Notes: generated by a model from the sequence alone, not told the origin. Counted from the stretch's first letter, positions 26,343 through 62,952 are shown. The stretch: DNA of 64,000 bases from OCS155 cluster bacterium AG-349-E07 (GCA_003281085.1 QCCZ01000001.1:99452-163451), one strand, 5' to 3'. Made by a program: numbers and translations.

Positions 26343-27206
26343 CTATGACAGAATTTTTTTAATTTCTTTTTTCCACTCTTTAAGTGAATCTTGAATATCA
26401 GAACCCATATCGTAGGAATGTTCTTCAGTTGGAAAGTTAAGGCTTTCTATGTCTTTTTTATATTCAAGTAGGGCTTTAACTGTTGCATCATACTGCTCAC
26501 CGTATCTTTTAACGAACTTAGCATCTATGTATTCTTTTGATTTCATGCCTATGAGATCATGGATCACAAGGACTTGCCCATCTGTATACTTTCCAGCACC
26601 TATGCCAATTGTTGGTATTGTTAAATTTTCTGAGATGGATTGAGCAACAACAGTAGGAACACCTTCTAGGACCATTGCAAAACATCCTGTTTCTTGCAAA
26701 AGAAGAGCTTCTTCGAAAAGTTTTTTAGCTAAATCTAGAGTTTTGCCTTGAATTTTGTAACCCCCCATTAAGTTTTTTGATTGTGGTGTTAAACCCAAAT
26801 GTCCCATCACTGGGATTTCAGCATCTATTAATGCCTTTATAACTTCTTTTCTTTTTTCTCCACCTTCTACTTTTACAGCATCTGCTTTGCCTTCTTGTAT
26901 GAATCTACCGGCATTTTTTAATGAATCAGAAATATTTATGTGATATGACAAATATGGCATATCGGCAACAACTAATGATGAGGGGTTGGCATTCGTGACC
27001 GCTTTTACATGATGCAACATTTCATCGACAGTGACAGAAAGTGTATCATCATGACCAAGAACAACCTGTGCTAGAGAGTCACCAACTAAAACGATATCAA
27101 TTTCTGCCTCTGAAACTGCTTTTGCTGTTGGATAATCGTAAGCAGTCATCATAGATATAACTCGATTGCCTTTTAAATTATTAATATAAGGTACTGTTTT
27201 TTTCAT
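26343..27206 (-). CDS. panB: 3-methyl-2-oxobutanoate hydroxymethyltransferase
   Basis: ISMMTAYDYPTAK..VLVGDSLAQVVLGHDDTLSVTVDEM matches the PanB consensus. Confidence 0.85.
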   Translation of the reverse strand: MKKTVPYINNLKGNRVISMMTAYDYPTAKAVSEAEIDIVLVGDSLAQVVLGHDDTLSVTVDEMLHHVKAVTNANPSSLVVADMPYLSYHINISDSLKNAGRFIQEGKADAVKVEGGEKRKEVIKALIDAEIPVMGHLGLTPQSKNLMGGYKIQGKTLDLAKKLFEEALLLQETGCFAMVLEGVPTVVAQSISENLTIPTIGIGAGKYTDGQVLVIHDLIGMKSKEYIDAKFVKRYGEQYDATVKALLEYKKDIESLNFPTEEHSYDMGSDIQDSLKEWKKEIKKILS

Positions 27207-27326
27207 TTTCCTCTCTCCGCTATATAAGTCGAAGGATTCATCACTATTCTATTAATATTTTATTATTAAACAAGATACTTATTGATATGATTTATTATTT
27301 CTAGCCATTGCCAATAACATCAATAT

Positions 27327-27932
27327 GTGAGTTATTTAAAATATTTAACCTTATTAATATTTATATCATGCTCAGTAACTAGCTCGGGAGTTGTAATGAA
27401 TGACAATGGATACGAAAAAGCTTATTTTGCCGGTGGTTGTTTTTGGTGTATGGAGCCTCCATTTGAGGCAATGGAAGGTGTAATAGAAGCTACATCAGGA
27501 TATATGGGTGGTTCTATAGAAAATCCTACATACGAAGAAGTCACTACAGGTGAAACTGGACATGCCGAAGTTGTAGAAGTCTTGTTTGACCCAACAATTG
27601 TTACATATGAAGAATTACTAGAAGTGTTCTGGAGAAATATTGACCCAACAGCTTTAAATTACCAATTTGCAGATGTTGGGTCGCAATATAGGACAGAGAT
27701 TTTTACAGTTGGAAGTGAACAGAAAGATTTAGCTGAACAGTCAAAAGTCGAATTAGAAAATTCTGGTAAATTTGATAAGCCAATTGTTACTGCAATTTCA
27801 GAAGCGCCTGCATTTTATATTGCTGAAGAATATCACCAGGATTTTTATAAAAAACAAAGTATGCGCTATCAAATGTACGCAAAAGCAAGTGGAAGAAAAG
27901 GGTTTCTCGAAGACACTTGGGGAGAAGACTAA
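27327..27932 (+). CDS. msrA: peptide methionine sulfoxide reductase A with N-terminal signal peptide
   Basis: GGCFWCMEP active-site motif; hydrophobic N-terminus. Confidence 0.85.
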   Translation: MSYLKYLTLLIFISCSVTSSGVVMNDNGYEKAYFAGGCFWCMEPPFEAMEGVIEATSGYMGGSIENPTYEEVTTGETGHAEVVEVLFDPTIVTYEELLEVFWRNIDPTALNYQFADVGSQYRTEIFTVGSEQKDLAEQSKVELENSGKFDKPIVTAISEAPAFYIAEEYHQDFYKKQSMRYQMYAKASGRKGFLEDTWGED

Positions 27933-45583: not shown

Positions 45584-45934
45584 ATGGAATCAATAAGCGT
45601 TGTTGTTAGGAAATTTCCAGAACACAATGAAGAATTTATGCAGGCATGGAAAGATTCTTGGACAGAAGCAGATACGTCAGCTTTTACTGAATCTGGAGCT
45701 GTGAATTACTGGGCATATGATGAGACAGATGATGGAGTTACTTACATTATTGTCAATAAATGGCCATCACAGGAAGCAAGAGAAGGATTTGTTAATTCAG
45801 ATGCTGCAAAAACAATGGAGTCAGAAATAAACTCTCTTTTTGAAGAAAAAACTGGAGTTAGCACAGATGAAGCAGACAAAGATGTCATCTCAGAATCTAT
45901 GTTTCTTGGTCTAGATGTGCAATTTAGTTTGTAA
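45584..45934 (+). CDS. ABM/Dabb-like small alpha+beta protein
   Basis: secondary-structure-like pattern similar to a single domain of the 56.7-60.1 kb paralogs; weak. Confidence 0.3.
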   Translation: MESISVVVRKFPEHNEEFMQAWKDSWTEADTSAFTESGAVNYWAYDETDDGVTYIIVNKWPSQEAREGFVNSDAAKTMESEINSLFEEKTGVSTDEADKDVISESMFLGLDVQFSL

Positions 45935-45936
45935 AA

Positions 45937-46479
45937 ATGAAAAAAATAATTTCGATTTTTACAGTATTTGTTTTATTTTCATTCTGCTCAAGTGGTCCGG
46001 AGGCAAGTGTTAATATTTTTGAGGCGGCTAAAACGGGTAATGTTGACGAAATAAACTTACACATTGAAGGCGGTAGTAATCTCAATGAGAGAGCTGAGCT
46101 TAACAGTGACACACCTTTAATTTTTGCAACAATTTATGGGCAAAACGAGATAGTTGAACTTTTATCTCAACAGGAAAGTGTTAATCTTGATTCTCAAAAC
46201 ATTCAGGGTTTTACAGCTCTTTGTGTTGCTACTGTATGGGGGCAGATCGAGATTATTGAAACGCTGCTTGCTGCGGGTGCAGATAAAAACATTAAATGTT
46301 TTGGAGATGAAAATAATAATGGTCCAAAAGTTGGTACCGCATTGATGGCAGCTCAAGCGTCTGTCAATCCTAGTATCGAAAAACAATACATCGATACTGC
46401 GGAGCAGTATGGACTTGAGTTTGATTTAGATAAAATTATTGAAGGTAGAGCTAAAGCAGCAGAAGCCCTTCAAAAATAA
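45937..46479 (+). CDS. secreted ankyrin-repeat protein
   Basis: signal peptide; 3-4 ANK repeats (TPLIFATIYGQNEIVELL; FTALCVATVWGQIEIIETLLAAGADKN). Confidence 0.6.
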   Translation: MKKIISIFTVFVLFSFCSSGPEASVNIFEAAKTGNVDEINLHIEGGSNLNERAELNSDTPLIFATIYGQNEIVELLSQQESVNLDSQNIQGFTALCVATVWGQIEIIETLLAAGADKNIKCFGDENNNGPKVGTALMAAQASVNPSIEKQYIDTAEQYGLEFDLDKIIEGRAKAAEALQK

Positions 46480-56518: not shown

Positions 56519-56680
56519 AAATTCAGTTTAAAGATAGTTTAATAAAAGTTCAGGAAGTTGTTTTAATCTTCTTGCTGTGTCGTCTTCAGAAAAAAGTATA
56601 TAGAGAAGCAACAAAATAAGTATTACTCTTGTAAGTGTTATTTTTCTGAACATAGAAATATGCTAAATATTTTCAATATA

Positions 56681-56714
56681 AAAAAAAGGGATTTTATAAA
56701 AAATCCCTTTTTTT
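56681..56714. terminator. bidirectional intrinsic terminator A8-GGGATTTT-ataa-AAAATCCC-T7
   Basis: read directly; closes the minus-strand operon ending at 56740. Confidence 0.65.
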
Positions 56715-56739
56715 CTATGCGTTATCTGTCCACTTAGAT

Positions 56740-57375
56740 TTATGTTGGAGTATCTCCCTCATTAAAATCAATAAACAACTTACCTGCATACACAGGTCCC
56801 ATATAAGCTACAGTGCTTCCATCAAACATTTCAGACTCTGATTCACTATCTAGTGCTGCCTGTAATTTTTCAACAGCTACATTCATTTCTTCCTCAGAAT
56901 CCCAGAAGTTCCAACTAATAGCGCTACTTCCGTCAAAAACTGCACCTGTTACTTGAAGGCCTTCAGACTCTTCATAAATTGGTTCTACTTTTTCTTTGAG
57001 GAAGCTCAATACTGCGTCTGTGTCTTTTGCAACACCAACAACCAACCTTAAATAGCTTGGTCTTGTACTGTCCTTAGCCATAGTCTTATATACCTTGCCA
57101 TAAACTGCATCTCCTTGATAAATTACAGGAGGTGCCGACATCATTCCAGCTGCTTCTGATAATACGCCTTGTATTTTTTCTTCTACAGCATCTACAGCTT
57201 CCTTACTTTCATAAGCAGCCAAATTAACGCCAGAAGTCTCCCCTGTAATAGCAGCCATCATCGTTAGAAGTCCAGGTGTGCCATCAAACTCTGGCATAAC
57301 TTTTTCTTTAACAAAAGATATGGCTTCGTCTTTTTTTCCATCCTGAAGAGATGGAATCGTTATTCTAAAGTACAT
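56740..57375 (-). CDS. paralog 4 of a tandem double ABM/Dabb-like domain protein family
   Basis: MYFR... N-terminus; internal two-fold repeat; paralogous to 57391, 58739 and 59416. Confidence 0.45.
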   Translation of the reverse strand: MYFRITIPSLQDGKKDEAISFVKEKVMPEFDGTPGLLTMMAAITGETSGVNLAAYESKEAVDAVEEKIQGVLSEAAGMMSAPPVIYQGDAVYGKVYKTMAKDSTRPSYLRLVVGVAKDTDAVLSFLKEKVEPIYEESEGLQVTGAVFDGSSAISWNFWDSEEEMNVAVEKLQAALDSESESEMFDGSTVAYMGPVYAGKLFIDFNEGDTPT

Positions 57376-57390
57376 AATTTCCTTTCTTTT

Positions 57391-58035
57391 TTAATTAATT
57401 GAGTTCCCTGCTTTAAAGTCGGTAAATTGCCTCATAGCAAACGGTTCACCATAATAATCTGTAAATCCATCCATTAGTGGCATGAATTTTTCGTATACAT
57501 TTTCATCAGCATTAAGTTTTTCATCAAAACTGTGCTTTGCATCATGAGAAGTCCAAAACTCAAACAAAACAAGTGAGTTATCATCGATTTTAATTGATCC
57601 GTAAGAAATAATTCCCTCATCGTTTTCAAGTTTTGGTAGATAAATTTCTTTTTGAAGATTCATATATTCGTCAGCATTTTTTACATCCAACTTTGCGAAT
57701 GCCAAAAAGAAAGAATCTCTTGGTTCTTCAACTAGAGAGTCCTTTAGGGTCTTGCCAGTAAATAGTTCACCTTCATAAACCCTTGGAAAACTAGCAAGCA
57801 GATCTTGAATTTGCATCAAGTTTTCGTTTCTAATTTGTGCAAATTTATCTGCAGTCTCTTTGTCCTTCATGAATGCAATACCTAGGTTTACATTATCTTT
57901 TGGATTAAAAAAGGCTATTGAATACAAGTCTCCTTTAAGGATCTCTAAAGCTGGGAAGCCTGTGTTTTCAAAAAACTCTTTTAGTTCATCAAGCTTCCCA
58001 TCTTGAAATAAAATACTGACTGCTACTGCATACAT
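57391..58035 (-). CDS. paralog 3 of the double ABM/Dabb-like domain family
   Basis: shares the FEFWTSHDAKH block with the 59416 paralog (FNFWTSHDAAH). Confidence 0.45.
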   Translation of the reverse strand: MYAVAVSILFQDGKLDELKEFFENTGFPALEILKGDLYSIAFFNPKDNVNLGIAFMKDKETADKFAQIRNENLMQIQDLLASFPRVYEGELFTGKTLKDSLVEEPRDSFFLAFAKLDVKNADEYMNLQKEIYLPKLENDEGIISYGSIKIDDNSLVLFEFWTSHDAKHSFDEKLNADENVYEKFMPLMDGFTDYYGEPFAMRQFTDFKAGNSIN

Positions 58036-58099
58036 TTGTTTTATTTTTTACTCTACGGAATAATTTCCTATTTAAATGTTTCCATTACTTACCTCAGAA

Positions 58100-58726
58100 T
58101 TATTCTGCTGTGTTTAAAGATGCTCTAAACGAAACACCTAGAGCCCAAACTGTAGCAGGGTAAAGTATCACTCCGCCTAATATCAAGATAATCAAATTTG
58201 CAGCATCAGGAATTAAACCAAAGGCTGAACCTAAACCATTAGTCATTACTAAAATGGCTGCTCCATATCCTGCAATAACACCCCAGCTTGGTAAGAGATC
58301 TACCTTACTGCTTCGCAAAACAGTAATTGTAAATATTCCAAGAAAAAGAGCCCAAACAGGACCATTGGTTCCTGTTGTTTGCAAAACTTGATTAGTTGTC
58401 AAAAAAGCATTGTCGCTATTTGAAGCTAAGGGTCCTGCAAATGCATCTTGAACAAAAATGCACTGAGTAACAAAAGCTATTGTTCCAGTAATTCTTACAT
58501 ATGGATTATTGTCGTCTCCAAACAACTTAGTTGTTAGAGCAAAAACAAATAACAATGCAAACCCAGTAATCACATTTAGTGTCGAGATAACTGGTCCCCA
58601 TGTTTCGTTGTAACCAACGACTGTTGGATCAAGAGCAAATGCCTGAATTAAGAAATTAGGAATTATTCCAATAACAAAAATTCTAGCCATGCTTGAGCCA
58701 ATTGCTACTTCCTTAGTACTTAACAT
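58100..58726 (-). CDS. membrane protein (5-6 TM), distinct from the NIWRY family
   Basis: hydrophobicity; embedded in the operon. Confidence 0.35.
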   Translation of the reverse strand: MLSTKEVAIGSSMARIFVIGIIPNFLIQAFALDPTVVGYNETWGPVISTLNVITGFALLFVFALTTKLFGDDNNPYVRITGTIAFVTQCIFVQDAFAGPLASNSDNAFLTTNQVLQTTGTNGPVWALFLGIFTITVLRSSKVDLLPSWGVIAGYGAAILVMTNGLGSAFGLIPDAANLIILILGGVILYPATVWALGVSFRASLNTAE

Positions 58727-58738
58727 ATATTTCCTTTC

Positions 58739-59389
58739 TTATTTGTTCCACTGTGATAATTTTCCAGCTGGAAAACTCACGTTATTTCTCCAAAGGTTGC
58801 AAACACCAGTCACAACGGTTGGAGGATTTTTTACATATTGCATGGCATCTGCCATGATTTCTTGAAACTTTTCTTGTGATGCATCCAAAGATTCCTGGTC
58901 CTCCCAGGTACTCATTGTTACCACAGAACCACCAACATCAGCAGCTGATGCACCCATTAGTCCTGGGGTTCCTTCATAACCAGCAAACACAGTATTCTGT
59001 ATCCAATCAGTTGCTTCCTCTATTTTGCCATCTTGGTATTCGGCTCCAAATCCAAGTCGAGCGACAAAAGGCTCCCCGTCTCTATCGCCCTTCATTAAGT
59101 TTTGGTAAATTTGCCCAGCATTCATTGGACCGTGTGAAATAGTTGGTGGGCCAGCAATATAATCTGCCAATCCTCCCAAAGCTTCTTGAATTTGAGGGCC
59201 TGCAGCATTCATTGCATCTTCGCTTGCCCATGTTGTCCAAGAAGTCATTTGGCCATTACTCATTTCAGCTATACAAATCTGATATAGTCCTGGTGTATCA
59301 ACAAATGAATCCATGACACCTGATGCGTAAGCAATGGTTTCATCCATTTTTCCTTCTTGTACATCTACTTGAGTTAATCTAAAATACAT
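58739..59389 (-). CDS. paralog 2 of the double ABM/Dabb-like domain family
   Basis: MYFRLTQVDVQEGKMDE...SWTTWASEDAMNAA parallels MYVRLGLANPKEGMAED...AWTTWANNEAKEAA. Confidence 0.45.
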   Translation of the reverse strand: MYFRLTQVDVQEGKMDETIAYASGVMDSFVDTPGLYQICIAEMSNGQMTSWTTWASEDAMNAAGPQIQEALGGLADYIAGPPTISHGPMNAGQIYQNLMKGDRDGEPFVARLGFGAEYQDGKIEEATDWIQNTVFAGYEGTPGLMGASAADVGGSVVTMSTWEDQESLDASQEKFQEIMADAMQYVKNPPTVVTGVCNLWRNNVSFPAGKLSQWNK

Positions 59390-59415
59390 TTTCCTCCTTT
59401 AACAAATCAATAGTA

Positions 59416-60057
59416 TTAAATTTTTCCTACTGGAAAATCAACATAATTTTTCCAAACGTTGCATTCACCGGTAAGTTCTTTGGGGGCTTCTTTTATCAAG
59501 CTTGCGACTGCATCTGAAACAACAGATGAAATTACTTCTGAAGCCGCGTGCGCGGCATCATGGCTTGTCCAAAAGTTAAAACTAAACCCACTATTTTCAT
59601 CTACTTTGCAAGCTCCAGTAGCATAAATACCCTCTACATTTTCATATGCTGTATAAACAGTATTTGTCATAAAATCAGCAATGTCATCGTAAGTTTTTCC
59701 TTCTTGTGTGCCTCCACCCATTACAAATCTTGCAAAAAATGGCTCTTCACCATCTTTAGGTACCATAATGTATTGTTGTCCAGCTACCATTGGGCCCTCA
59801 AGAATAGTTGGAGGTTCATTCAACAGTTCAGCAAGCCCAGCAAGGTTCTGTTGGAATTCAGCCATAGCTGCTTCTTTAGCTTCATTATTAGCCCATGTTG
59901 TCCAAGCCATAAGCTGTCCTTCATTATTAATGCATGCAGCAGCTCCTAATAGTCCGCTTACCTGATCGTATACTGGTATTGCTACGTCCCTAAAGTAATT
60001 TAAAGCGTCTTCTGCCATACCTTCTTTGGGGTTCGCTAATCCTAGTCTTACATACAT
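59416..60057 (-). CDS. paralog 1 of the double ABM/Dabb-like domain family
   Basis: as above; two ferredoxin-like alpha+beta half-domains. Confidence 0.45.
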   Translation of the reverse strand: MYVRLGLANPKEGMAEDALNYFRDVAIPVYDQVSGLLGAAACINNEGQLMAWTTWANNEAKEAAMAEFQQNLAGLAELLNEPPTILEGPMVAGQQYIMVPKDGEEPFFARFVMGGGTQEGKTYDDIADFMTNTVYTAYENVEGIYATGACKVDENSGFSFNFWTSHDAAHAASEVISSVVSDAVASLIKEAPKELTGECNVWKNYVDFPVGKI

Positions 60058-60060
60058 AAA

Positions 60061-60594
60061 CTATTCTTTCTTATTCCAAGCAAGTAGTGGGCCTATTCCG
60101 ACACCTGCAATAAATGCTAAGAAAAAAACAAACTGGAAAGGAGTATCTGCAATGATATTAGTTCCAGTAATAAATTCACTACCAGCTCCTACAATTCCAG
60201 ACAATCCAGCGATAATCGCTGCATATCTCCAGATATTATCGATTACACCTTCTGAGGTTACACCTAGGCCTAATATTACAAATCCAAATAATGTCCAAAC
60301 ACCAGAAGTGTTTAGATCTTCATTAATACCAAGAAGTGATGCAACAAACACTGCCGCAGCAATCATTGTGTATCCCTGTCTCCAATCTTCAGGAACTGTA
60401 TCTCCTTGAAGATCTTTCAATCCCAAAAGTATTCCTACAAGTGAAAAGGACCAGAATAATTGAAGTACATTTTCAAAAACTCCATAATCTAGTTCAGCTA
60501 TGCCTCCAACAAACCAAACAACATTTATAGCTATAAACATGTAGGCTGCTTGTTGTGATCCTTCTTTAACGTCCTGTATAAAGAACTTTTTCAT
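60061..60594 (-). CDS. small membrane protein, NIWRY-motif family paralog C
   Basis: shares NIWRY.AI..GL and C-terminal AWNK.E with 60634 and 61213. Confidence 0.4.
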   Translation of the reverse strand: MKKFFIQDVKEGSQQAAYMFIAINVVWFVGGIAELDYGVFENVLQLFWSFSLVGILLGLKDLQGDTVPEDWRQGYTMIAAAVFVASLLGINEDLNTSGVWTLFGFVILGLGVTSEGVIDNIWRYAAIIAGLSGIVGAGSEFITGTNIIADTPFQFVFFLAFIAGVGIGPLLAWNKKE

Positions 60595-60633
60595 TTTATT
60601 TTCTTTCTCCTTTTTCTAATATTCTCTTTCTTT

Positions 60634-61191
60634 TTAATCTTCTCTCTTGTTCCAAGCTGTATATGTTCCAACCCCTATTCCAAGAAGCCATGAAACATAA
60701 AAAACTAAACCAATAGGAAATACCCATTCAGGCAAACTATCAAAGAATGAGCCATCAAAGAAATAATCATATCCTATAAAAAAAAGCAGACCTAATGAGC
60801 CAGTTATTGCCATGTACCTCCATATGTTTGAGACAACGCCTTCAGCAACAACATTGAATCCAATTATCGTTATCAATATAAACAAATAAATTCCATCAGT
60901 ATTTATAGGAGCTTCTGTTCCAATGTAAGCTGTATCAAAGATTCCAAAACCTAAAGCCACAGCTGCGATCATTGCTGTTCCGGTTTCCCAACTTTTTGGA
61001 ACATTATTGTTTTCGACTAATTGGTAACTTAACAAAATCACATTAGCAAAAGCGACTGCCCCAAAAAATGCAATTAGTTTATCTAAACCATTTATTCCTA
61101 GCTCAAGAAAGCCATAGACTTCTGAAAAGATAAACATAATCGCAGATCCTTTAGCTTGTTGTTTATCTGGTTGTACAAAAAATGATCTCAT
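60634..61191 (-). CDS. small membrane protein, NIWRY-motif family paralog B
   Basis: see above. Confidence 0.4.
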   Translation of the reverse strand: MRSFFVQPDKQQAKGSAIMFIFSEVYGFLELGINGLDKLIAFFGAVAFANVILLSYQLVENNNVPKSWETGTAMIAAVALGFGIFDTAYIGTEAPINTDGIYLFILITIIGFNVVAEGVVSNIWRYMAITGSLGLLFFIGYDYFFDGSFFDSLPEWVFPIGLVFYVSWLLGIGVGTYTAWNKRED

Positions 61192-61212
61192 CGATTAAAC
61201 TCCTGTTCTTTT

Positions 61213-61842
61213 TTATTCAACTTCATTGCTTGTGGTTGATTTATCACCCCAGGCAAAATAATTTCCTAAACTAAAACCAATTATCAAAACAAGCCATCCA
61301 ATAAATCCAAATTGTTGAAAGGAATCTGTAGGCTCAAAGCCAAAAAATAGAGTTGCTGAGCTTCCAATAAGTAGAAACAGTGCTCCAAGAATTGTCATGT
61401 TCTCATAAATTGGACGAAATACTCCATTACCTCTGAGAGTAACGCTATAAATTAATGAATTAAATGCCCAAAAAAAGTACATTGGTAGAAATCCATCTTC
61501 TAATTCAGTAATTTCAAGAAATGTTCCGAATATTATGACTGTAGCTAAAATGCTGTGTGCTGATCTCCAATAATCTGGAACATGATCTTCAGCAAGATAA
61601 TATGCAGTAATAACTATTGTGGCGAGAGAGAAACCCCAGATGAAGTTTATCAAATCTTCAAGCGCATCAAGTGCTGTTATGCCTGATAGCTCTAATGCTA
61701 CAAATAAAAGATTCAAGACCAAAAATGTAATAGCATTTTGTCTTGCTAAATTGCCGATTGGTTGCGTAAAAAATGTTTTCATAAGATAACCTACCTTCCA
61801 TAAGCTCCGTTTATTAATTTTTTGGCGTAATTTAACTTCCAT
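61213..61842 (-). CDS. small membrane protein, NIWRY-family-related paralog A (more diverged)
   Basis: PDYWRSAHSILATVIIFG parallels P(K/E)SW..G.AMIAA; C-terminal YFAWGDK. Confidence 0.35.
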   Translation of the reverse strand: MEVKLRQKINKRSLWKVGYLMKTFFTQPIGNLARQNAITFLVLNLLFVALELSGITALDALEDLINFIWGFSLATIVITAYYLAEDHVPDYWRSAHSILATVIIFGTFLEITELEDGFLPMYFFWAFNSLIYSVTLRGNGVFRPIYENMTILGALFLLIGSSATLFFGFEPTDSFQQFGFIGWLVLIIGFSLGNYFAWGDKSTTSNEVE

Positions 61843-61898
61843 AAATTACATGGCCATTCTACAAAATTTTTATTGGGCTTGTGTTGGATTTTGTTAAA

Positions 61899-61920
61899 TT
61901 TGTGTAAAGTTTGTGTAAAT
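61899..61920. promoter_or_regulatory. tandem 11-bp direct repeat TTTGTGTAAAG / TTTGTGTAAAT (preceded by the degenerate ttgtgttggatt / ttgttaaatt) about 57-78 nt upstream of the 61842 start codon
   Basis: read directly. Confidence 0.4.
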
Positions 61921-62952
61921 CTAGGACTTTTCGAGAACTAATGGTTTTACTTCTTGCCCGATGAGGTTAAATGTCTGAAGAAGGTCATCATGAGACAGAC
62001 CAGCATTATCTATTTGAAAAGTAAAGCGTGAAATGCCTCCCAAAGCCTTGCTATGTCTGACTAATTTATCAGCAACTTCTTCTGGACCTCCAATAACATA
62101 AGCTCCTAAGTCACCAATTTGTTGTTCAAATCTCTCCATAGTAACTGGTGGCCAGCCACGCTCTTTGCCAATTTGGTTAAACCAAACTCTATAGCCCGGA
62201 TAGTATTTTTCCACTGCTTCTTCTTTTGTGTTTGCCACGAAACCAAGTGAGTGAAGTCCTATTTTCAAGGAAGATTTTTCATGGCCTGCCTCTTCAGCAG
62301 CTTTATAGTAAAGATCAACTAACGGCTTAAACCTATGTGTCTCACCTCCAATTACAGCAATCATAAGAGGTAGGCCTAAGGAACCTGCTCGAACAAATGA
62401 TGCGGGAGTTCCTCCAACACCTACCCATATTGGTAATTTTTTTTGAACAGGCCTTGGATAAACAATCTGATTTTCTAGAGGTGGTCTAAATCTTCCGGAC
62501 CAAGTAACTTGTTGTTCATCTCTGATTTTCAAAAGAAGATCAAGTTTCTCAGCATAGAGGTCATCGTAATCACTAAAGTCAAGTCCAAATAAAGGAAAAG
62601 CCTCCGTAAAAGATCCTCTGCCTGCAACTATTTCTGCTCTGCCATTGGAAATCAAATCTAACGTTGAGTAATTTTGAAATAATCTTACTGGATCCATTGC
62701 ACTAATTACTGCGACTGCACTGGTTAAACGAATGTTATCTGTTTTTGATGCTGCAGCAGAAAGTATATTATGAGCTGCAGAATCTAGAAACTCTTCTCTA
62801 TGGTGCTCCCCAAGACCAAAAACATCAATACCAACTTTATCGGCATGTACAATTCGTTCAATGAGCTCAAACATAGCCTTTGCGTCATCATCAACAGTGC
62901 CTCCTTCATTTGTTAAAGTCTTCTTAGCAAAGGAGTCTATTCCTATTTCCAT
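61921..62952 (-). CDS. LLM-class (luciferase-like) flavin/F420-dependent oxidoreductase
   Basis: TIM-barrel LLM pattern (MEIGIDSF.., GRAEIVAGRGSF.., IVYPRPVQ). Confidence 0.7.
   Translation of the reverse strand: MEIGIDSFAKKTLTNEGGTVDDDAKAMFELIERIVHADKVGIDVFGLGEHHREEFLDSAAHNILSAAASKTDNIRLTSAVAVISAMDPVRLFQNYSTLDLISNGRAEIVAGRGSFTEAFPLFGLDFSDYDDLYAEKLDLLLKIRDEQQVTWSGRFRPPLENQIVYPRPVQKKLPIWVGVGGTPASFVRAGSLGLPLMIAVIGGETHRFKPLVDLYYKAAEEAGHEKSSLKIGLHSLGFVANTKEEAVEKYYPGYRVWFNQIGKERGWPPVTMERFEQQIGDLGAYVIGGPEEVADKLVRHSKALGGISRFTFQIDNAGLSHDDLLQTFNLIGQEVKPLVLEKS

What the first reader, a model, noticed from the sequence alone, without database searches (positions are those of the whole stretch)
56740..61842. 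Operon of four paralogous double-ABM/Dabb-like proteins interleaved with three paralogous NIWRY-motif membrane proteins and a fourth membrane protein
Eight consecutive minus-strand genes are separated by only 3-70 nt. Three encode membrane proteins of 177-209 aa sharing NIWRY and a C-terminal AWNKxE. Two encode soluble paralogs of 213-216 aa; then comes one unrelated membrane protein, then two more soluble paralogs of 211-214 aa. Each soluble protein starts MY(F/V)R and is an internal duplication of a roughly 105-aa ferredoxin-like alpha+beta module (blocks such as AWTTWANNEAKEAA / SWTTWASEDAMNAA and FNFWTSHDAAH / FEFWTSHDAKH). ABM/Dabb folds are typically cofactor-free oxygenases, heme-degrading enzymes or small-molecule binders. 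Fourfold paralogy alongside a paralogous membrane partner set looks like a modular, possibly substrate-diversified, system that I cannot assign to any described pathway. It is bounded by promoter direct repeats (61899..61920) and a strong bidirectional terminator (56681..56714).
Basis: partly seen in the sequence, partly recalled or inferred. Interest (0 to 1): 0.8.

Follow-up and report, generated by a model that had tools for sequence, protein, structure and literature searches.

The report
Actinomarina-only operon: fused-ABM plus membrane paralogs
One of the ocean's smallest and most abundant bacteria (Candidatus Actinomarina) keeps a conserved operon of four ancient fused ABM-barrel proteins and four six-helix membrane proteins found in no other lineage searched; the genes are real and under selection, but their function is still unknown.

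Summary
Eight tightly packed minus-strand genes (56740-61842) encode four soluble paralogs and four membrane proteins.

- **Organism:** Candidatus Actinomarina, a 1.1-Mb, paralog-poor marine actinobacterium.
- **Soluble proteins:** Each is an internally duplicated, fused pseudo-dimeric ABM / alpha+beta-barrel protein (AF2 pLDDT 90). The best PDB matches are uncharacterised tandem-ABM "putative monooxygenases". They form four orthogroups that predate the diversification of the sampled Actinomarina lineages.
- **Membrane proteins:** The "unrelated" fourth one is a remote homolog of the other three (HHalign 94% against 3% for a reversed control). All are N-in/C-in six-helix bundles with no specific solved-fold relative. 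A profile search of 1.84 billion representative proteins found 66 hits, and the 13 longest all belong to this cluster's own M and M4 families.
- **Selection and position:** All eight genes are under purifying selection (dN/dS 0.04-0.24). The cluster always sits between the same M20-peptidase and PNPOx genes.
- **Variation:** Gene content varies, with soluble copies at 1-4 and membrane copies at 1-5. Membrane genes are swapped even between near-identical strains, and an S1+membrane pair moves as a unit to a second site.
- **Exclusions:** IsdG-type haem degradation, ECF/YkoF-like uptake, defence systems and the known hypervariable island were each tested and not supported.

My best guess, held at low confidence, is modular membrane-partner/ABM-barrel pairs that handle small hydrophobic or aromatic molecules at the membrane.

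The parts
61213..61782 (-). M1, six-helix membrane protein. It is the first gene and has the most widespread membrane orthogroup.
   Evidence: It matches the M-family HMM at 8e-72. An M1 ortholog is present in 22 of the fetched loci.
60634..61191 (-). M2, six-helix membrane paralog (185 aa) with NIWRY and AWNKRE motifs. It belongs to a rare orthogroup.
   Evidence: Only 4 close homologs were found among 5.8 billion proteins.
60061..60594 (-). M3, six-helix membrane paralog (177 aa), the most conserved of the set. This is the protein that was modelled.
59416..60057 (-). S4, fused double-ABM cytoplasmic protein (213 aa). It is nearly universal in the main locus.
   Evidence: Pfam ABM scores 17.4 bits.
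58739..59389 (-). S3, fused double-ABM cytoplasmic protein (216 aa). This is the protein that was modelled.
   Evidence: Pfam ABM scores 23.5 bits. AF2 gives pLDDT 90. Foldseek matches 3f44 and 3mcs at TM 0.75.
58100..58726 (-). M4, six-helix membrane protein (208 aa). It is a remote homolog of M1-M3 and itself belongs to a multi-orthogroup family.
   Evidence: HHalign of M against M4 gives 94% probability, E 1e-7, over 178 columns. The reversed control gives 3%. It shares the N-in/C-in topology. Orthogroups are mapped.
57391..58035 (-). S2, fused double-ABM paralog (214 aa) and the most divergent of the four.
   Evidence: Pfam ABM is only weak, E 0.21.
56740..57375 (-). S1, fused double-ABM paralog (211 aa). 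In other genomes it sits with an M4-type gene at a second site.
61856..61863 (-). Extended -10-like element TGTAGAAT upstream of the operon.
   Evidence: Read from the sequence. It is conserved in the type-1 leaders of related genomes. The consensus scan did not list it, so this assignment is an inference.
61783..61849 (-). Conserved 5' leader with two small hairpins, 61849-61827 and 61806-61788. Each carries GGAAG in its loop, and the second holds the Shine-Dalgarno sequence.
   Evidence: The alignment of 13 genomes has 79% mean column identity. The fold is dG -9.8 with z -0.69, which is not exceptional. No Rfam family matches.
61900..61919 (-). Direct repeat TTTACACAA x2, 11 nt apart, upstream of the -10 element. 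It may be an operator.
   Evidence: It is exact in L010 and L029, has one mismatch in L009, and is kept only in part in more distant relatives.
56680..56715 (.). Bidirectional intrinsic terminator (A-tract, 16-bp stem, T-tract) that ends the operon.
   Evidence: dG -17.4 kcal/mol and z -5.68.

Best explanation
**What it is (shown).** This is a vertically inherited operon found so far only in Candidatus Actinomarina and its close relatives. It has its own promoter-like region, a conserved leader and a strong terminator. It encodes two families.

1. **Soluble family.** These are cytoplasmic fused-ABM proteins, each a pseudo-dimeric alpha+beta barrel built from two ferredoxin-like modules. They form four ancient orthogroups, S1 to S4.
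2. **Membrane family.** This is a single orphan superfamily of N-in/C-in six-helix bundles, with M-type and M4-type branches. It has diversified into about 14 orthogroups at 50% identity. Members are gained, lost and swapped like cassettes at one fixed chromosomal site.

**How it most likely works (inferred).**
- Each membrane protein is a specificity or partner module, and a cytoplasmic ABM barrel docks onto it.
- Every conserved M-family motif lies on the cytoplasmic face: MKxFF, D-x-VPE-x-WR, G-x-x-NIWRY and AWNKKE.
- The soluble proteins carry a conserved C-terminal F-x-x-G tail, and their C-terminal module is the better conserved one (D124, E139, W162).
- The pairs would bind, sequester or transform, without a cofactor, small hydrophobic or aromatic molecules that are taken up through the membrane or reside in it.
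- Different membrane paralogs would serve different ligands.

**Confidence split.** The descriptive part (real operon, ABM fold, orphan membrane superfamily, lineage restriction, purifying selection, copy-number variation) is well supported, at about 0.9. The mechanistic part (physical S-M coupling and small-molecule handling) is inference only. The confidence value given here refers to that mechanistic part.
For: **Genes, paralogy and duplication:**

**Organism and distribution:**
- All 33 genome loci come from Ca. Actinomarina, OCS155 or Acidimicrobiia, apart from one MAG labelled Cryomorphaceae that is probably mis-binned.
- S3 has only 44 homologs, all from marine metagenomes.
- The M profile finds 66 hits in 1.84 billion representatives. 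The 13 longest all match the cluster's own M or M4 family HMMs, and 10 of the 13 are 80-98% identical to a fetched Actinomarina locus gene.

**Fold of the soluble proteins:**

**Membrane proteins:**
- M and M4 are homologous beyond composition.
- They share the same six-TM positive-inside topology. K+R is near zero in loops 1, 3 and 5.

**Selection:** dN/dS is 0.04-0.24 for all eight genes, similar to the flanking genes.

**Evidence for functional coupling of the two families:**
- Every locus with an S gene and enough flanking sequence also has an M or M4 gene beside it.
- The S1 + M4-type pair occurs as an isolated two-gene unit at a second site. That site's flanks are present in this window at 27207-27326, and the site is empty here.
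- In the most distant genomes the cluster is reduced to exactly M4 + S1 (L030, L039).

**Evidence for modularity:**
- There are four conserved S orthogroups against about 14 membrane orthogroups.
- L009, whose M20 flanking gene is 99% identical to the window's, lacks M3 and carries an extra M4-type gene instead.

**Conserved residues:**
Against: - No direct evidence shows that S and M proteins interact. In a genome with a median intergenic spacer of about 2 bp (PMC7771536), tight packing alone is weak evidence for coupling.
- The ratio of soluble to membrane genes is not fixed. It ranges from 4:4 and 3:3 to 2:5 and 1:4.
- The S family has no conserved His, Cys or Asn that would mark a known catalytic site.
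- The AF2 models rest on shallow alignments of 10 and 16 rows.
Confidence: 0.35

Rival explanations
1. The two families share an operon but are functionally independent. The S proteins would be free cytoplasmic cofactor-independent oxygenases or isomerases, like ActVA-Orf6, YgiN or anthrone oxygenases, acting on soluble metabolites. The membrane proteins would do something unrelated, and co-location would reflect only genome compaction.
For: - The best fold matches include the anthrone-oxidase-like protein 5f9p and the monooxygenase PenE 9kdp.
- ABM is the only profile family matched.
- The S:M ratio is variable.
- The genome is extremely compact (PMC7771536).
Against: - S1 and an M4-type gene relocate together as an isolated pair, and the minimal cluster in distant genomes is M4+S1.
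- In the fetched loci that have enough flanking sequence, no S gene was seen without a neighbouring M or M4 gene.
- No polyketide or quinone-pathway genes flank the cluster. The neighbours are an M20 peptidase, an LLM oxidoreductase, a PNPOx-like protein and an amino-acid permease.
Confidence: 0.2
2. The products are subunits of one hetero-oligomeric membrane-associated complex, structural or bioenergetic. The paralogs would be non-interchangeable subunits rather than substrate-specific modules.
For: - The four S orthogroups are ancient and are co-retained in many genomes. In some, S1 sits at a second site so that all four are still present.
- Counts are equal in several genomes (4+4, 3+3).
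- ABM barrels and their relatives, such as sulfur oxygenase reductase, can build large assemblies.
Against: - Many genomes keep only two S paralogs, or one, with 3-5 membrane genes (L018-L028, L037).
- Membrane genes are exchanged between near-identical strains (L009 against L010 and the window). That is unexpected for obligate subunits.
Confidence: 0.15
3. It is a conflict or surface-variation cassette array. The variable membrane proteins would be immunity proteins or phage and toxin targets, and the ABM proteins would be accessory.
For: - Membrane gene content turns over like cassettes at a fixed hotspot between conserved flanking genes, even within about 99%-related genomes.
- In the M4 family the conserved residues lie in external loops.
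Against: - PADLOC gives no hit for any of the eight proteins.
- No toxin, nuclease or secretion domains are present.
- All genes are under purifying selection, and the orthogroups are old.
- Operon GC is 0.368 against 0.340 for the window, and the window holds no tRNA gene. This is unlike the tRNA-bounded, low-GC hypervariable island of Actinomarina.
- No relative of the soluble (S) family was found in the viral contigs. The membrane-family scan could not be run.
Confidence: 0.08
4. It handles tetrapyrroles or haem. Actinomarinales are reported among haem-auxotrophic groups. The ABM barrels would bind or degrade haem as IsdG, MhuD or HmoB do, and the Trp-rich membrane proteins would import or hold it.
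For: - Actinomarinales are listed among groups with deficient haem biosynthesis (bioRxiv 10.1101/2021.01.11.426183).
- HmoB, chlorite-dismutase-like proteins and coproheme decarboxylase appear among the lower-ranked fold matches (E about 1e-6, TM about 0.5).
- The M family's conserved residues are mainly aromatic.
Against: - The IsdG-family Asn/Trp/His triad is not conserved. No His or Asn column is conserved across the 70 S sequences.
- The top fold matches are non-haem tandem ABMs.
- The PDB matches of the M3 model are generic bundles, and no specific haem-transporter family stands out among them.
Confidence: 0.07
5. It is a vitamin or precursor uptake system of the ECF/YkoF type. The six-TM proteins would be S-component-like substrate capturers, and the double ferredoxin-like proteins would be YkoF-like cytoplasmic binders, serving the organism's thiamine and biotin auxotrophies.
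For: - The size, six-TM architecture, high sequence divergence and multiplicity of the membrane proteins resemble group-II ECF S-components, and YkoF is a tandem ferredoxin-like binder. Both comparisons come from my own knowledge and were not tested here.
- Thiamine biosynthesis is absent and biotin biosynthesis is non-functional in Actinomarina (bioRxiv 10.64898/2026.04.03.716425).
Against: - The S3 model matches ABM barrels, and no YkoF/MTH1187 entry appears in the top 50.
- No EcfA or EcfT gene lies in or next to the operon.
Confidence: 0.05

Closest known systems
Uncharacterised tandem-ABM 'putative monooxygenases' from structural genomics (PDB 3f44 from Lactobacillus acidophilus; 3mcs FN1347 from Fusobacterium nucleatum)
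   Same: They have the same length (about 210-218 aa) and the same architecture: two ABM ferredoxin-like modules fused into one pseudo-dimeric barrel. Foldseek gives E 2e-13 and 2e-11 with TM 0.75.
   Different: Sequence identity is only 10-14%. Those proteins also have no known function, so the match names a fold and not an activity. Whether they have membrane-protein partners was not examined here.
ABM family (Pfam PF03992) cofactor-independent oxygenases, including ActVA-Orf6, YgiN quinol monooxygenase, the anthrone-oxidase-like protein 5f9p and PenE 9kdp
   Same: They share the dimeric alpha+beta barrel fold, the loop after strand 1 (QEGK...) and the W-x-S-x-(D/E)-A motif at the end of strand 3.
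   Different: Only S3 reaches the Pfam gathering score, and only just (23.5 against 23.1). There is no polyketide or quinone-pathway context. No activity has been tested. The arrangement as arrays with orphan membrane proteins is not a described feature of these enzymes.
IsdG / IsdI / MhuD / HmoB haem-degrading ABM proteins
   Same: They share the ABM fold. HmoB appears among the weaker structural matches (E about 1e-6). The host lineage is reported as haem-auxotrophic.
   Different: The catalytic Asn-Trp-His triad is absent as a conserved feature. The pairing is with six-TM proteins rather than an ABC haem importer.
Pfam DUF1428 (PF07237), another family of the dimeric alpha+beta barrel clan
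   Same: 21 of 70 S-family members give weak matches, the best at E 9e-5.
   Different: The matches cover a single domain and fall below the gathering score. DUF1428 also has no known function.

Membership tests
Dimeric alpha+beta barrel / ABM superfamily (soluble proteins S1-S4) | A ferredoxin-like b-a-b-b-a-b module, with two modules packing into a barrel | tested here: met
   The AF2 model of S3 (pLDDT 90, pTM 0.84) shows two such modules. Foldseek gives 159 PDB matches at E<=1e-3, and the top 50 are all ferredoxin-like alpha+beta proteins led by tandem-ABM structures. The N- and C-halves are homologous in S1, S3 and S4 and across paralogs.
Pfam ABM (PF03992) | Whole-protein score at or above the gathering threshold of 23.1 bits | tested here: inconclusive
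   S3 scores 23.5 bits, S4 17.4, S2 12.2, and S1 gives no match. Across 70 family members, 52 match at E<=1, the best at 4.6e-7.
ABM cofactor-independent monooxygenases | O2-dependent oxidation of an aromatic or quinol substrate without a cofactor | not testable with these tools
   This needs an enzyme assay. No pathway context suggests a substrate.
IsdG-family haem oxygenases | A conserved Asn / Trp / His catalytic triad with His as the haem ligand | tested here: not met
   The conserved columns of the 70-sequence alignment are L71, P82, G87, E139, G143, W162 and G195, plus G13, G34, G92, D124, F206 and G209. No His or Asn is among them.
ECF-transporter S-components (membrane proteins) | The S-component six-helix fold, and dependence on an EcfT/EcfA module | tested here: not met
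YkoF / MTH1187-like tandem ferredoxin-like binding proteins | The YkoF-type fold and its ligand site | tested here: not met
   No such entry appears in the top 50 Foldseek matches, which are other ferredoxin-like alpha+beta proteins led by tandem ABM barrels.
Known anti-phage defence systems | A match to a PADLOC model | tested here: not met
   None of the eight proteins gives a hit at E<=0.1.
Actinomarina hypervariable region / flexible genomic island fGI1 | tRNA-bounded, low GC (about 28-29%), envelope-glycosylation genes | tested here: not met
   The 64-kb window holds no tRNA gene. Operon GC is 0.368 against 0.340 for the window. The flanks are conserved M20 and PNPOx genes. The island itself is described in PMC7771536 and in bioRxiv 10.64898/2026.04.03.716425.
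Any curated RNA family for the conserved leader | An Rfam covariance-model match | tested here: not met
   The window gives no hit at gathering threshold. The permissive scan of 61740-61960 returns only chance-level matches.

The most novel reading that the evidence does not exclude
The cluster is a previously undescribed kind of membrane-coupled small-molecule system that arose within the Actinomarina lineage. An orphan superfamily of six-helix membrane proteins acts as interchangeable specificity modules. Each recruits a fused ABM barrel through cytoplasmic docking motifs. Swapping membrane cassettes then re-tunes which dissolved organic molecules, or which membrane-borne molecules, this extremely streamlined and abundant ocean bacterium captures or detoxifies.
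Probability: 0.3. Interest if true: 0.8.

Novelty: new variant of a known kind. Interest (0 to 1): 0.55.

Why it matters
**Why the cluster stands out.** Candidatus Actinomarina is among the smallest free-living cells and among the most abundant surface-ocean photoheterotrophs. Its 1.1-Mb genome is reported to hold only about 40 paralogs (PMC7771536). An eight-gene operon made entirely of two paralogous families is therefore conspicuous. It takes about 5 kb, is under purifying selection, and is kept at the same chromosomal position in every fetched locus with enough flanking sequence. Something the cell cannot afford to lose is being done there.

**What is new.**
- The membrane family has no detectable relative outside the lineage in a library that represents 15 billion proteins.
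- It has no specific match among solved folds.
- The two Actinomarina genome papers I searched (PMC7771536 and the 2026 preprint) do not mention the cluster.

**What it could lead to.**
- If the membrane and ABM proteins work as pairs, this would be a new way of coupling ABM barrels to the membrane.
- It could also serve as a marker of niche differences between Actinomarina strains.
- The proteins are small and could be expressed heterologously, so the question can be addressed even though the organism is uncultured.

Tried and rejected
**Searches that found nothing specific.**
- NCBIfam returned nothing for any of the eight proteins, and Pfam returned nothing for the membrane proteins.
- PDB sequence searches with the M+M4 profile gave only a chance-level SemiSWEET hit (E 0.015). 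With the S profiles the top hits were spurious designed-TPR proteins sharing a QEGKxEEAIxY-like motif, followed by ABM entries at E about 0.1.
- The afdb50 fold library was not available.
- PADLOC gave nothing.
- The viral-contig scan with the S family found no relative. The M+M4 alignment was too variable to build a search pattern.
- Rfam gave nothing for the window or for the leader.
- The leader's predicted structure is not thermodynamically unusual, with z -0.69.
- Literature searches for tandem or double ABM proteins, for Actinomarina with ABM, and for Actinomarina metaproteomics turned up no paper on this cluster.

**Hypotheses tested and rejected.**
- An internal 3+3 repeat in the membrane proteins (SemiSWEET-like) was not found.
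- Pseudogene remnants in the gaps of related clusters were not found. The gaps hold further genes instead: a 180-aa membrane ORF and a 116-aa single ABM-like ORF.

**A search that under-delivered.** The profile search with 90 M+M4 sequences listed only M3 orthologs among its top 120 hits. It therefore did not deepen the alignment used for structure prediction.

**Readings rejected.**
- Recent assembly duplication.
- Membership of the known hypervariable island.
- IsdG-type haem oxygenase.

Full report

The ORF list shows eight consecutive minus-strand ORFs from 56740 to 61842, with gaps of 15, 64, 12, 26, 3, 39 and 21 nt. I name them in transcription order:

| Gene | Coordinates | Type |
|---|---|---|
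| M1 | 61213-61842 | membrane |
| M2 | 60634-61191 | membrane |
| M3 | 60061-60594 | membrane |
| S4 | 59416-60057 | soluble |
| S3 | 58739-59389 | soluble |
| M4 | 58100-58726 | membrane |
| S2 | 57391-58035 | soluble |
| S1 | 56740-57375 | soluble |

- The four soluble proteins are full-length paralogs. Five of the six pairs are 25-35% identical (E 5e-39 to 5e-15). S2 against S3 is only 20% (E 0.11), and that pair is linked through S4 and S1.
- The N- and C-halves match each other in S1, S3 and S4 (E 7e-10, 3e-9, 1e-7) and across paralogs, so the internal duplication is real. S2's halves do not match each other directly.
- M1-M3 are 26-30% identical (E 5e-12 to 2e-25).
- The soluble proteins have no hydrophobic segment, and each membrane protein has several.
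Its dG is -17.4 kcal/mol and z is -5.7.

Some details need correction.
- NIWRY and AWNKxE occur in M2 and M3 but not in M1.
- MY(F/V)R starts S1, S3 and S4 but not S2.
- M1 aligns to M2 and M3 only from its residue 21. Its orthologs are 187-194 aa. The upstream ATG at 61842 is replaced by a non-start codon in the two closest genomes. M1 therefore starts at 61782, behind a GGAAGG ribosome-binding site.

**2. Organism and distribution.**

The window has 34% GC. A degenerate-pattern scan of one genome per species found the soluble family at 33 loci. All are labelled Candidatus Actinomarina, OCS155, Acidimicrobiia or a related Actinomycetota MAG, apart from one MAG labelled Cryomorphaceae that is probably mis-binned. 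Two single-cell genomes are 96% identical to S3.

- S3 has only 44 homologs among 5.8 billion proteins. All come from marine metagenomes and none carries a curated name.
- M2 has four homologs.
- A profile of the membrane family was read against all 1.84 billion cluster representatives, which stand for 15 billion proteins. It found 66 proteins at E<=1e-3, most of them fragments.
- I checked the 13 longest of these. All match the cluster's own M or M4 family HMMs, and 10 of the 13 are 80-98% identical to a gene in a fetched Actinomarina locus.
- Sources that name these proteins call them "hypothetical protein".
- No viral relative of the soluble family was found.

The membrane family is therefore lineage-restricted as far as HMMER can see. 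For the soluble family the same is likely, but that search was not exhaustive.

**3. What the proteins are.**

*Soluble proteins.*
- S3 reaches the Pfam ABM threshold by a hair (23.5 against 23.1 bits), and S4 and S2 score below it.
- Of 70 family members, 52 match ABM at E<=1 and 21 match DUF1428, which belongs to the same clan.
- The AF2 model of S3 (pLDDT 90, pTM 0.84) has two b-a-b-b-a-a-b modules.
- Foldseek against the PDB puts it with fused tandem-ABM "putative monooxygenases" 3f44 and 3mcs (E 2e-13 and 2e-11, TM 0.75).
- The next matches are an anthrone-oxidase-like protein, PenE, sulfur oxygenase reductase and a marine-metagenome protein, 2pgc. HmoB and chlorite-dismutase/ChdC-type proteins rank lower.
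- The fold assignment is secure, but it names no activity.
- Across all four orthogroups the conserved columns are mostly Gly and Pro, plus D124, E139, W162 and a C-terminal F206-x-x-G209. No His, Cys or Asn is conserved.
- This excludes the IsdG-type triad and points to the C-terminal module as the functional half.

*Membrane proteins.*
- The AF2 model of M3 (pLDDT 83, pTM 0.78) is a six-helix up-down bundle.
- Foldseek finds nothing at E<=1e-3, and the PDB sequence profile search finds nothing.
- The "unrelated" M4 aligns to the M family with HHalign probability 94% (E 1e-7) over 178 columns. A control with the M4 alignment reversed gives 3%.
- Both families show the same strong positive-inside pattern. 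K+R is near zero in loops 1, 3 and 5, so both are N-in/C-in with six TM helices.
- I conclude that the operon encodes four members of one orphan superfamily.
- In the M branch all conserved motifs face the cytoplasm: N-terminal MKxFF, D-x-VPE-x-WR after TM2, G-x-x-NIWRY before TM5, and the C-terminal AWNKKE.
- In the M4 branch several conserved residues lie in external loops.
- Neither branch has a conserved charged residue inside its helices.

**4. Comparative anatomy.**

I annotated all fetched loci with family HMMs and clustered the proteins at 50% identity.

- The soluble proteins fall into four orthogroups, S1-S4, plus one divergent singleton. Each is 58-98% identical to the window's copy. 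The paralogs therefore predate the diversification of the sampled Actinomarina lineages.
- The membrane proteins fall into about 14 groups.
- The usual order is M1, then 0-2 further M-type genes or an M4-type gene, then S4, (S3), 1-2 M4-type genes, (S2), (S1).
- Soluble copies range from 1 to 4 per locus and membrane copies from 1 to 5.
- Wherever enough flanking sequence is held, the cluster lies between the same M20-peptidase gene and the same PNPOx-like gene, even where those flanks have diverged to 57-70% identity.
- A luciferase-like oxidoreductase gene is variably present upstream, and it is present in this window.
- An acyltransferase-3 gene follows the cluster in L001.
- Turnover is recent as well as ancient. 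L009, whose M20 flanking gene is 99% identical to the window's, lacks M3 and carries an extra M4-type gene.
- In several genomes S1 is missing from the main cluster. It sits with an M4-type gene as an isolated pair about 25-30 kb away.
- That second site's flanking genes are present in this window (73-83% identity), with an empty 120-nt gap at 27207-27326.
- In the most distant genomes, L030 and L039, the main site holds only M4+S1.
- All eight window genes have dN/dS of 0.04-0.24 against L010 and L009, like the flanking genes.
- Operon GC (0.368) is slightly above the window mean (0.340), and the window holds no tRNA gene.
- This is therefore not the tRNA-bounded, low-GC glycosylation island described for the order (PMC7771536; bioRxiv 10.64898/2026.04.03.716425).

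**5. Regulation.**

The 5' region of the operon is conserved.
- An extended -10-like TGTAGAAT lies at 61863-61856.
- A leader follows, with two small hairpins at 61849-61827 and 61806-61788. Each presents GGAAG in its loop, and the second holds the Shine-Dalgarno sequence.
- Thirteen genomes share this "type 1" leader at 79% mean column identity. Other genera carry a second type with the same 3' hairpin.
- The leader matches no Rfam family and is not unusually stable (z -0.69).
It has one mismatch in L009 and is kept only in part further out.

**6. How it most likely works.**

*Shown:* two co-located families, one a cytoplasmic ABM barrel and the other an orphan six-TM bundle. Both are under selection, both are lineage-specific, and gene content is modular.

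*Inferred:* the families work together. Three observations support this.
- S and M or M4 genes were never found apart in loci with enough flanking sequence.
- S1 and an M4-type gene move together as a pair.
- The minimal cluster is M4+S1.

The conserved soluble set, set against the diversified and swappable membrane set, suggests that the membrane proteins carry specificity. The cytoplasmic position of the M-branch motifs and the conserved C-terminal tail of the S proteins suggest docking. ABM barrels typically enclose a hydrophobic pocket for aromatic, quinone-like or polyketide-like ligands (established knowledge of the family). I therefore propose membrane-partner/ABM pairs that bind or transform, without a cofactor, small hydrophobic or aromatic molecules at the membrane. 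I put this at about 0.35.

The rivals are listed separately with evidence on both sides:
- independent functions sharing a compact operon (0.2);
- one hetero-oligomeric complex (0.15);
- a conflict or surface-variation array (0.08);
- haem or tetrapyrrole handling (0.07);
- ECF/YkoF-like vitamin uptake (0.05).

**7. Comparison with what is known, and novelty.**

The soluble proteins belong to the dimeric alpha+beta barrel / ABM superfamily by fold. By sequence they are marginal members of Pfam ABM. Their closest structural relatives are themselves uncharacterised.

- They fail the IsdG-family test.
- The membrane proteins belong to no described family and fail the ECF S-component test.
- No defence-system model matches.
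- I found no paper describing the cluster. The main genome paper on the order stresses how few paralogs these genomes have and does not mention it. The 2026 complete-genome preprint does not mention it either.

I file the finding as a new variant of a known kind: divergent fused ABM proteins in an undescribed arrangement with an orphan membrane superfamily. The more novel reading, a new kind of membrane-coupled system, is not excluded, and I give it a probability of about 0.3.

**8. Verdict.**

The feature is real, conserved and unexplained. Its interest is moderate to good (0.55). It is conspicuous in an extremely streamlined and globally abundant organism, and the membrane family is a true orphan. 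Against that, lineage-specific operons of unknown function are common, no mechanism is demonstrated, and no long-standing question becomes directly testable yet.

Noticed in passing
window 61783-61863 (minus strand); also L009, L010, L018, L021-L023, L025-L029 and L037 upstream of M1: The 5' leader of the operon is conserved, at 79% mean column identity across 13 genomes. It has an extended -10-like TGTAGAAT and two small hairpins that each present GGAAG, the second holding the Shine-Dalgarno sequence. A second leader type with the same 3' hairpin occurs in other genera. A minimal ATG-TAA (or TTG-TAA) sits at the start of hairpin 1. No Rfam family matches, and the fold is not unusually stable.
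   Followed up: partly
window 45584-45934 (+): This 116-aa single-domain ABM-like ORF has homologs at 36-54% identity to one another that lie inside the cluster, between S3 or S4 and the M4-type gene, in L012, L018 and L020. In this window it sits about 11 kb away, next to an ankyrin-repeat lipoprotein-like ORF (45937-46479).
   Followed up: partly
L015 8654-9196 and L016 7778-8320: A 180-aa multi-helix membrane ORF lies between S3 and S2. Neither the M nor the M4 HMM recognises it (E 0.03 and 0.003 when only these two extra ORFs were scored). It may be a further, more divergent branch of the membrane superfamily.
   Followed up: partly
window 27207-27326: This is the empty counterpart of the second site that holds an S1 + M4-type gene pair in other Actinomarina genomes (L031-L034, L036, L038, L040, L041). 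The flanking genes 26343-27206(-) and 27327-27932(+) are 73-75% identical to those of L041.
   Followed up: yes
P0042 and P0043 (metagenome proteins): These proteins have an S3-like N-terminal half joined to an S4-like C-terminal half. They are either recombinants between adjacent paralogs or assembly chimeras.
   Followed up: no
window 61921-62952 (-): This luciferase-like (LLM) oxidoreductase gene is present between the M20 peptidase gene and the cluster in only some genomes: L009, L010, L025-L027, L029, L030 and L039. The insertion point upstream of the operon is therefore also variable. Separately, an acyltransferase-3 gene follows the cluster in L001.
   Followed up: partly
L026 (BOWN01000001.1, labelled MAG: Cryomorphaceae bacterium): This contig carries M20, LLM, M3 and S4 genes at 80-88% identity to the window's Actinomarina copies. 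The contig, or the whole MAG, is probably mislabelled or mis-binned.
   Followed up: no
L001 8669-9282: An M4-type gene appears split into two called genes of 87 and 111 aa in the 1.08-Mb long-read contig. This is either a frameshift or an assembly error.
   Followed up: no
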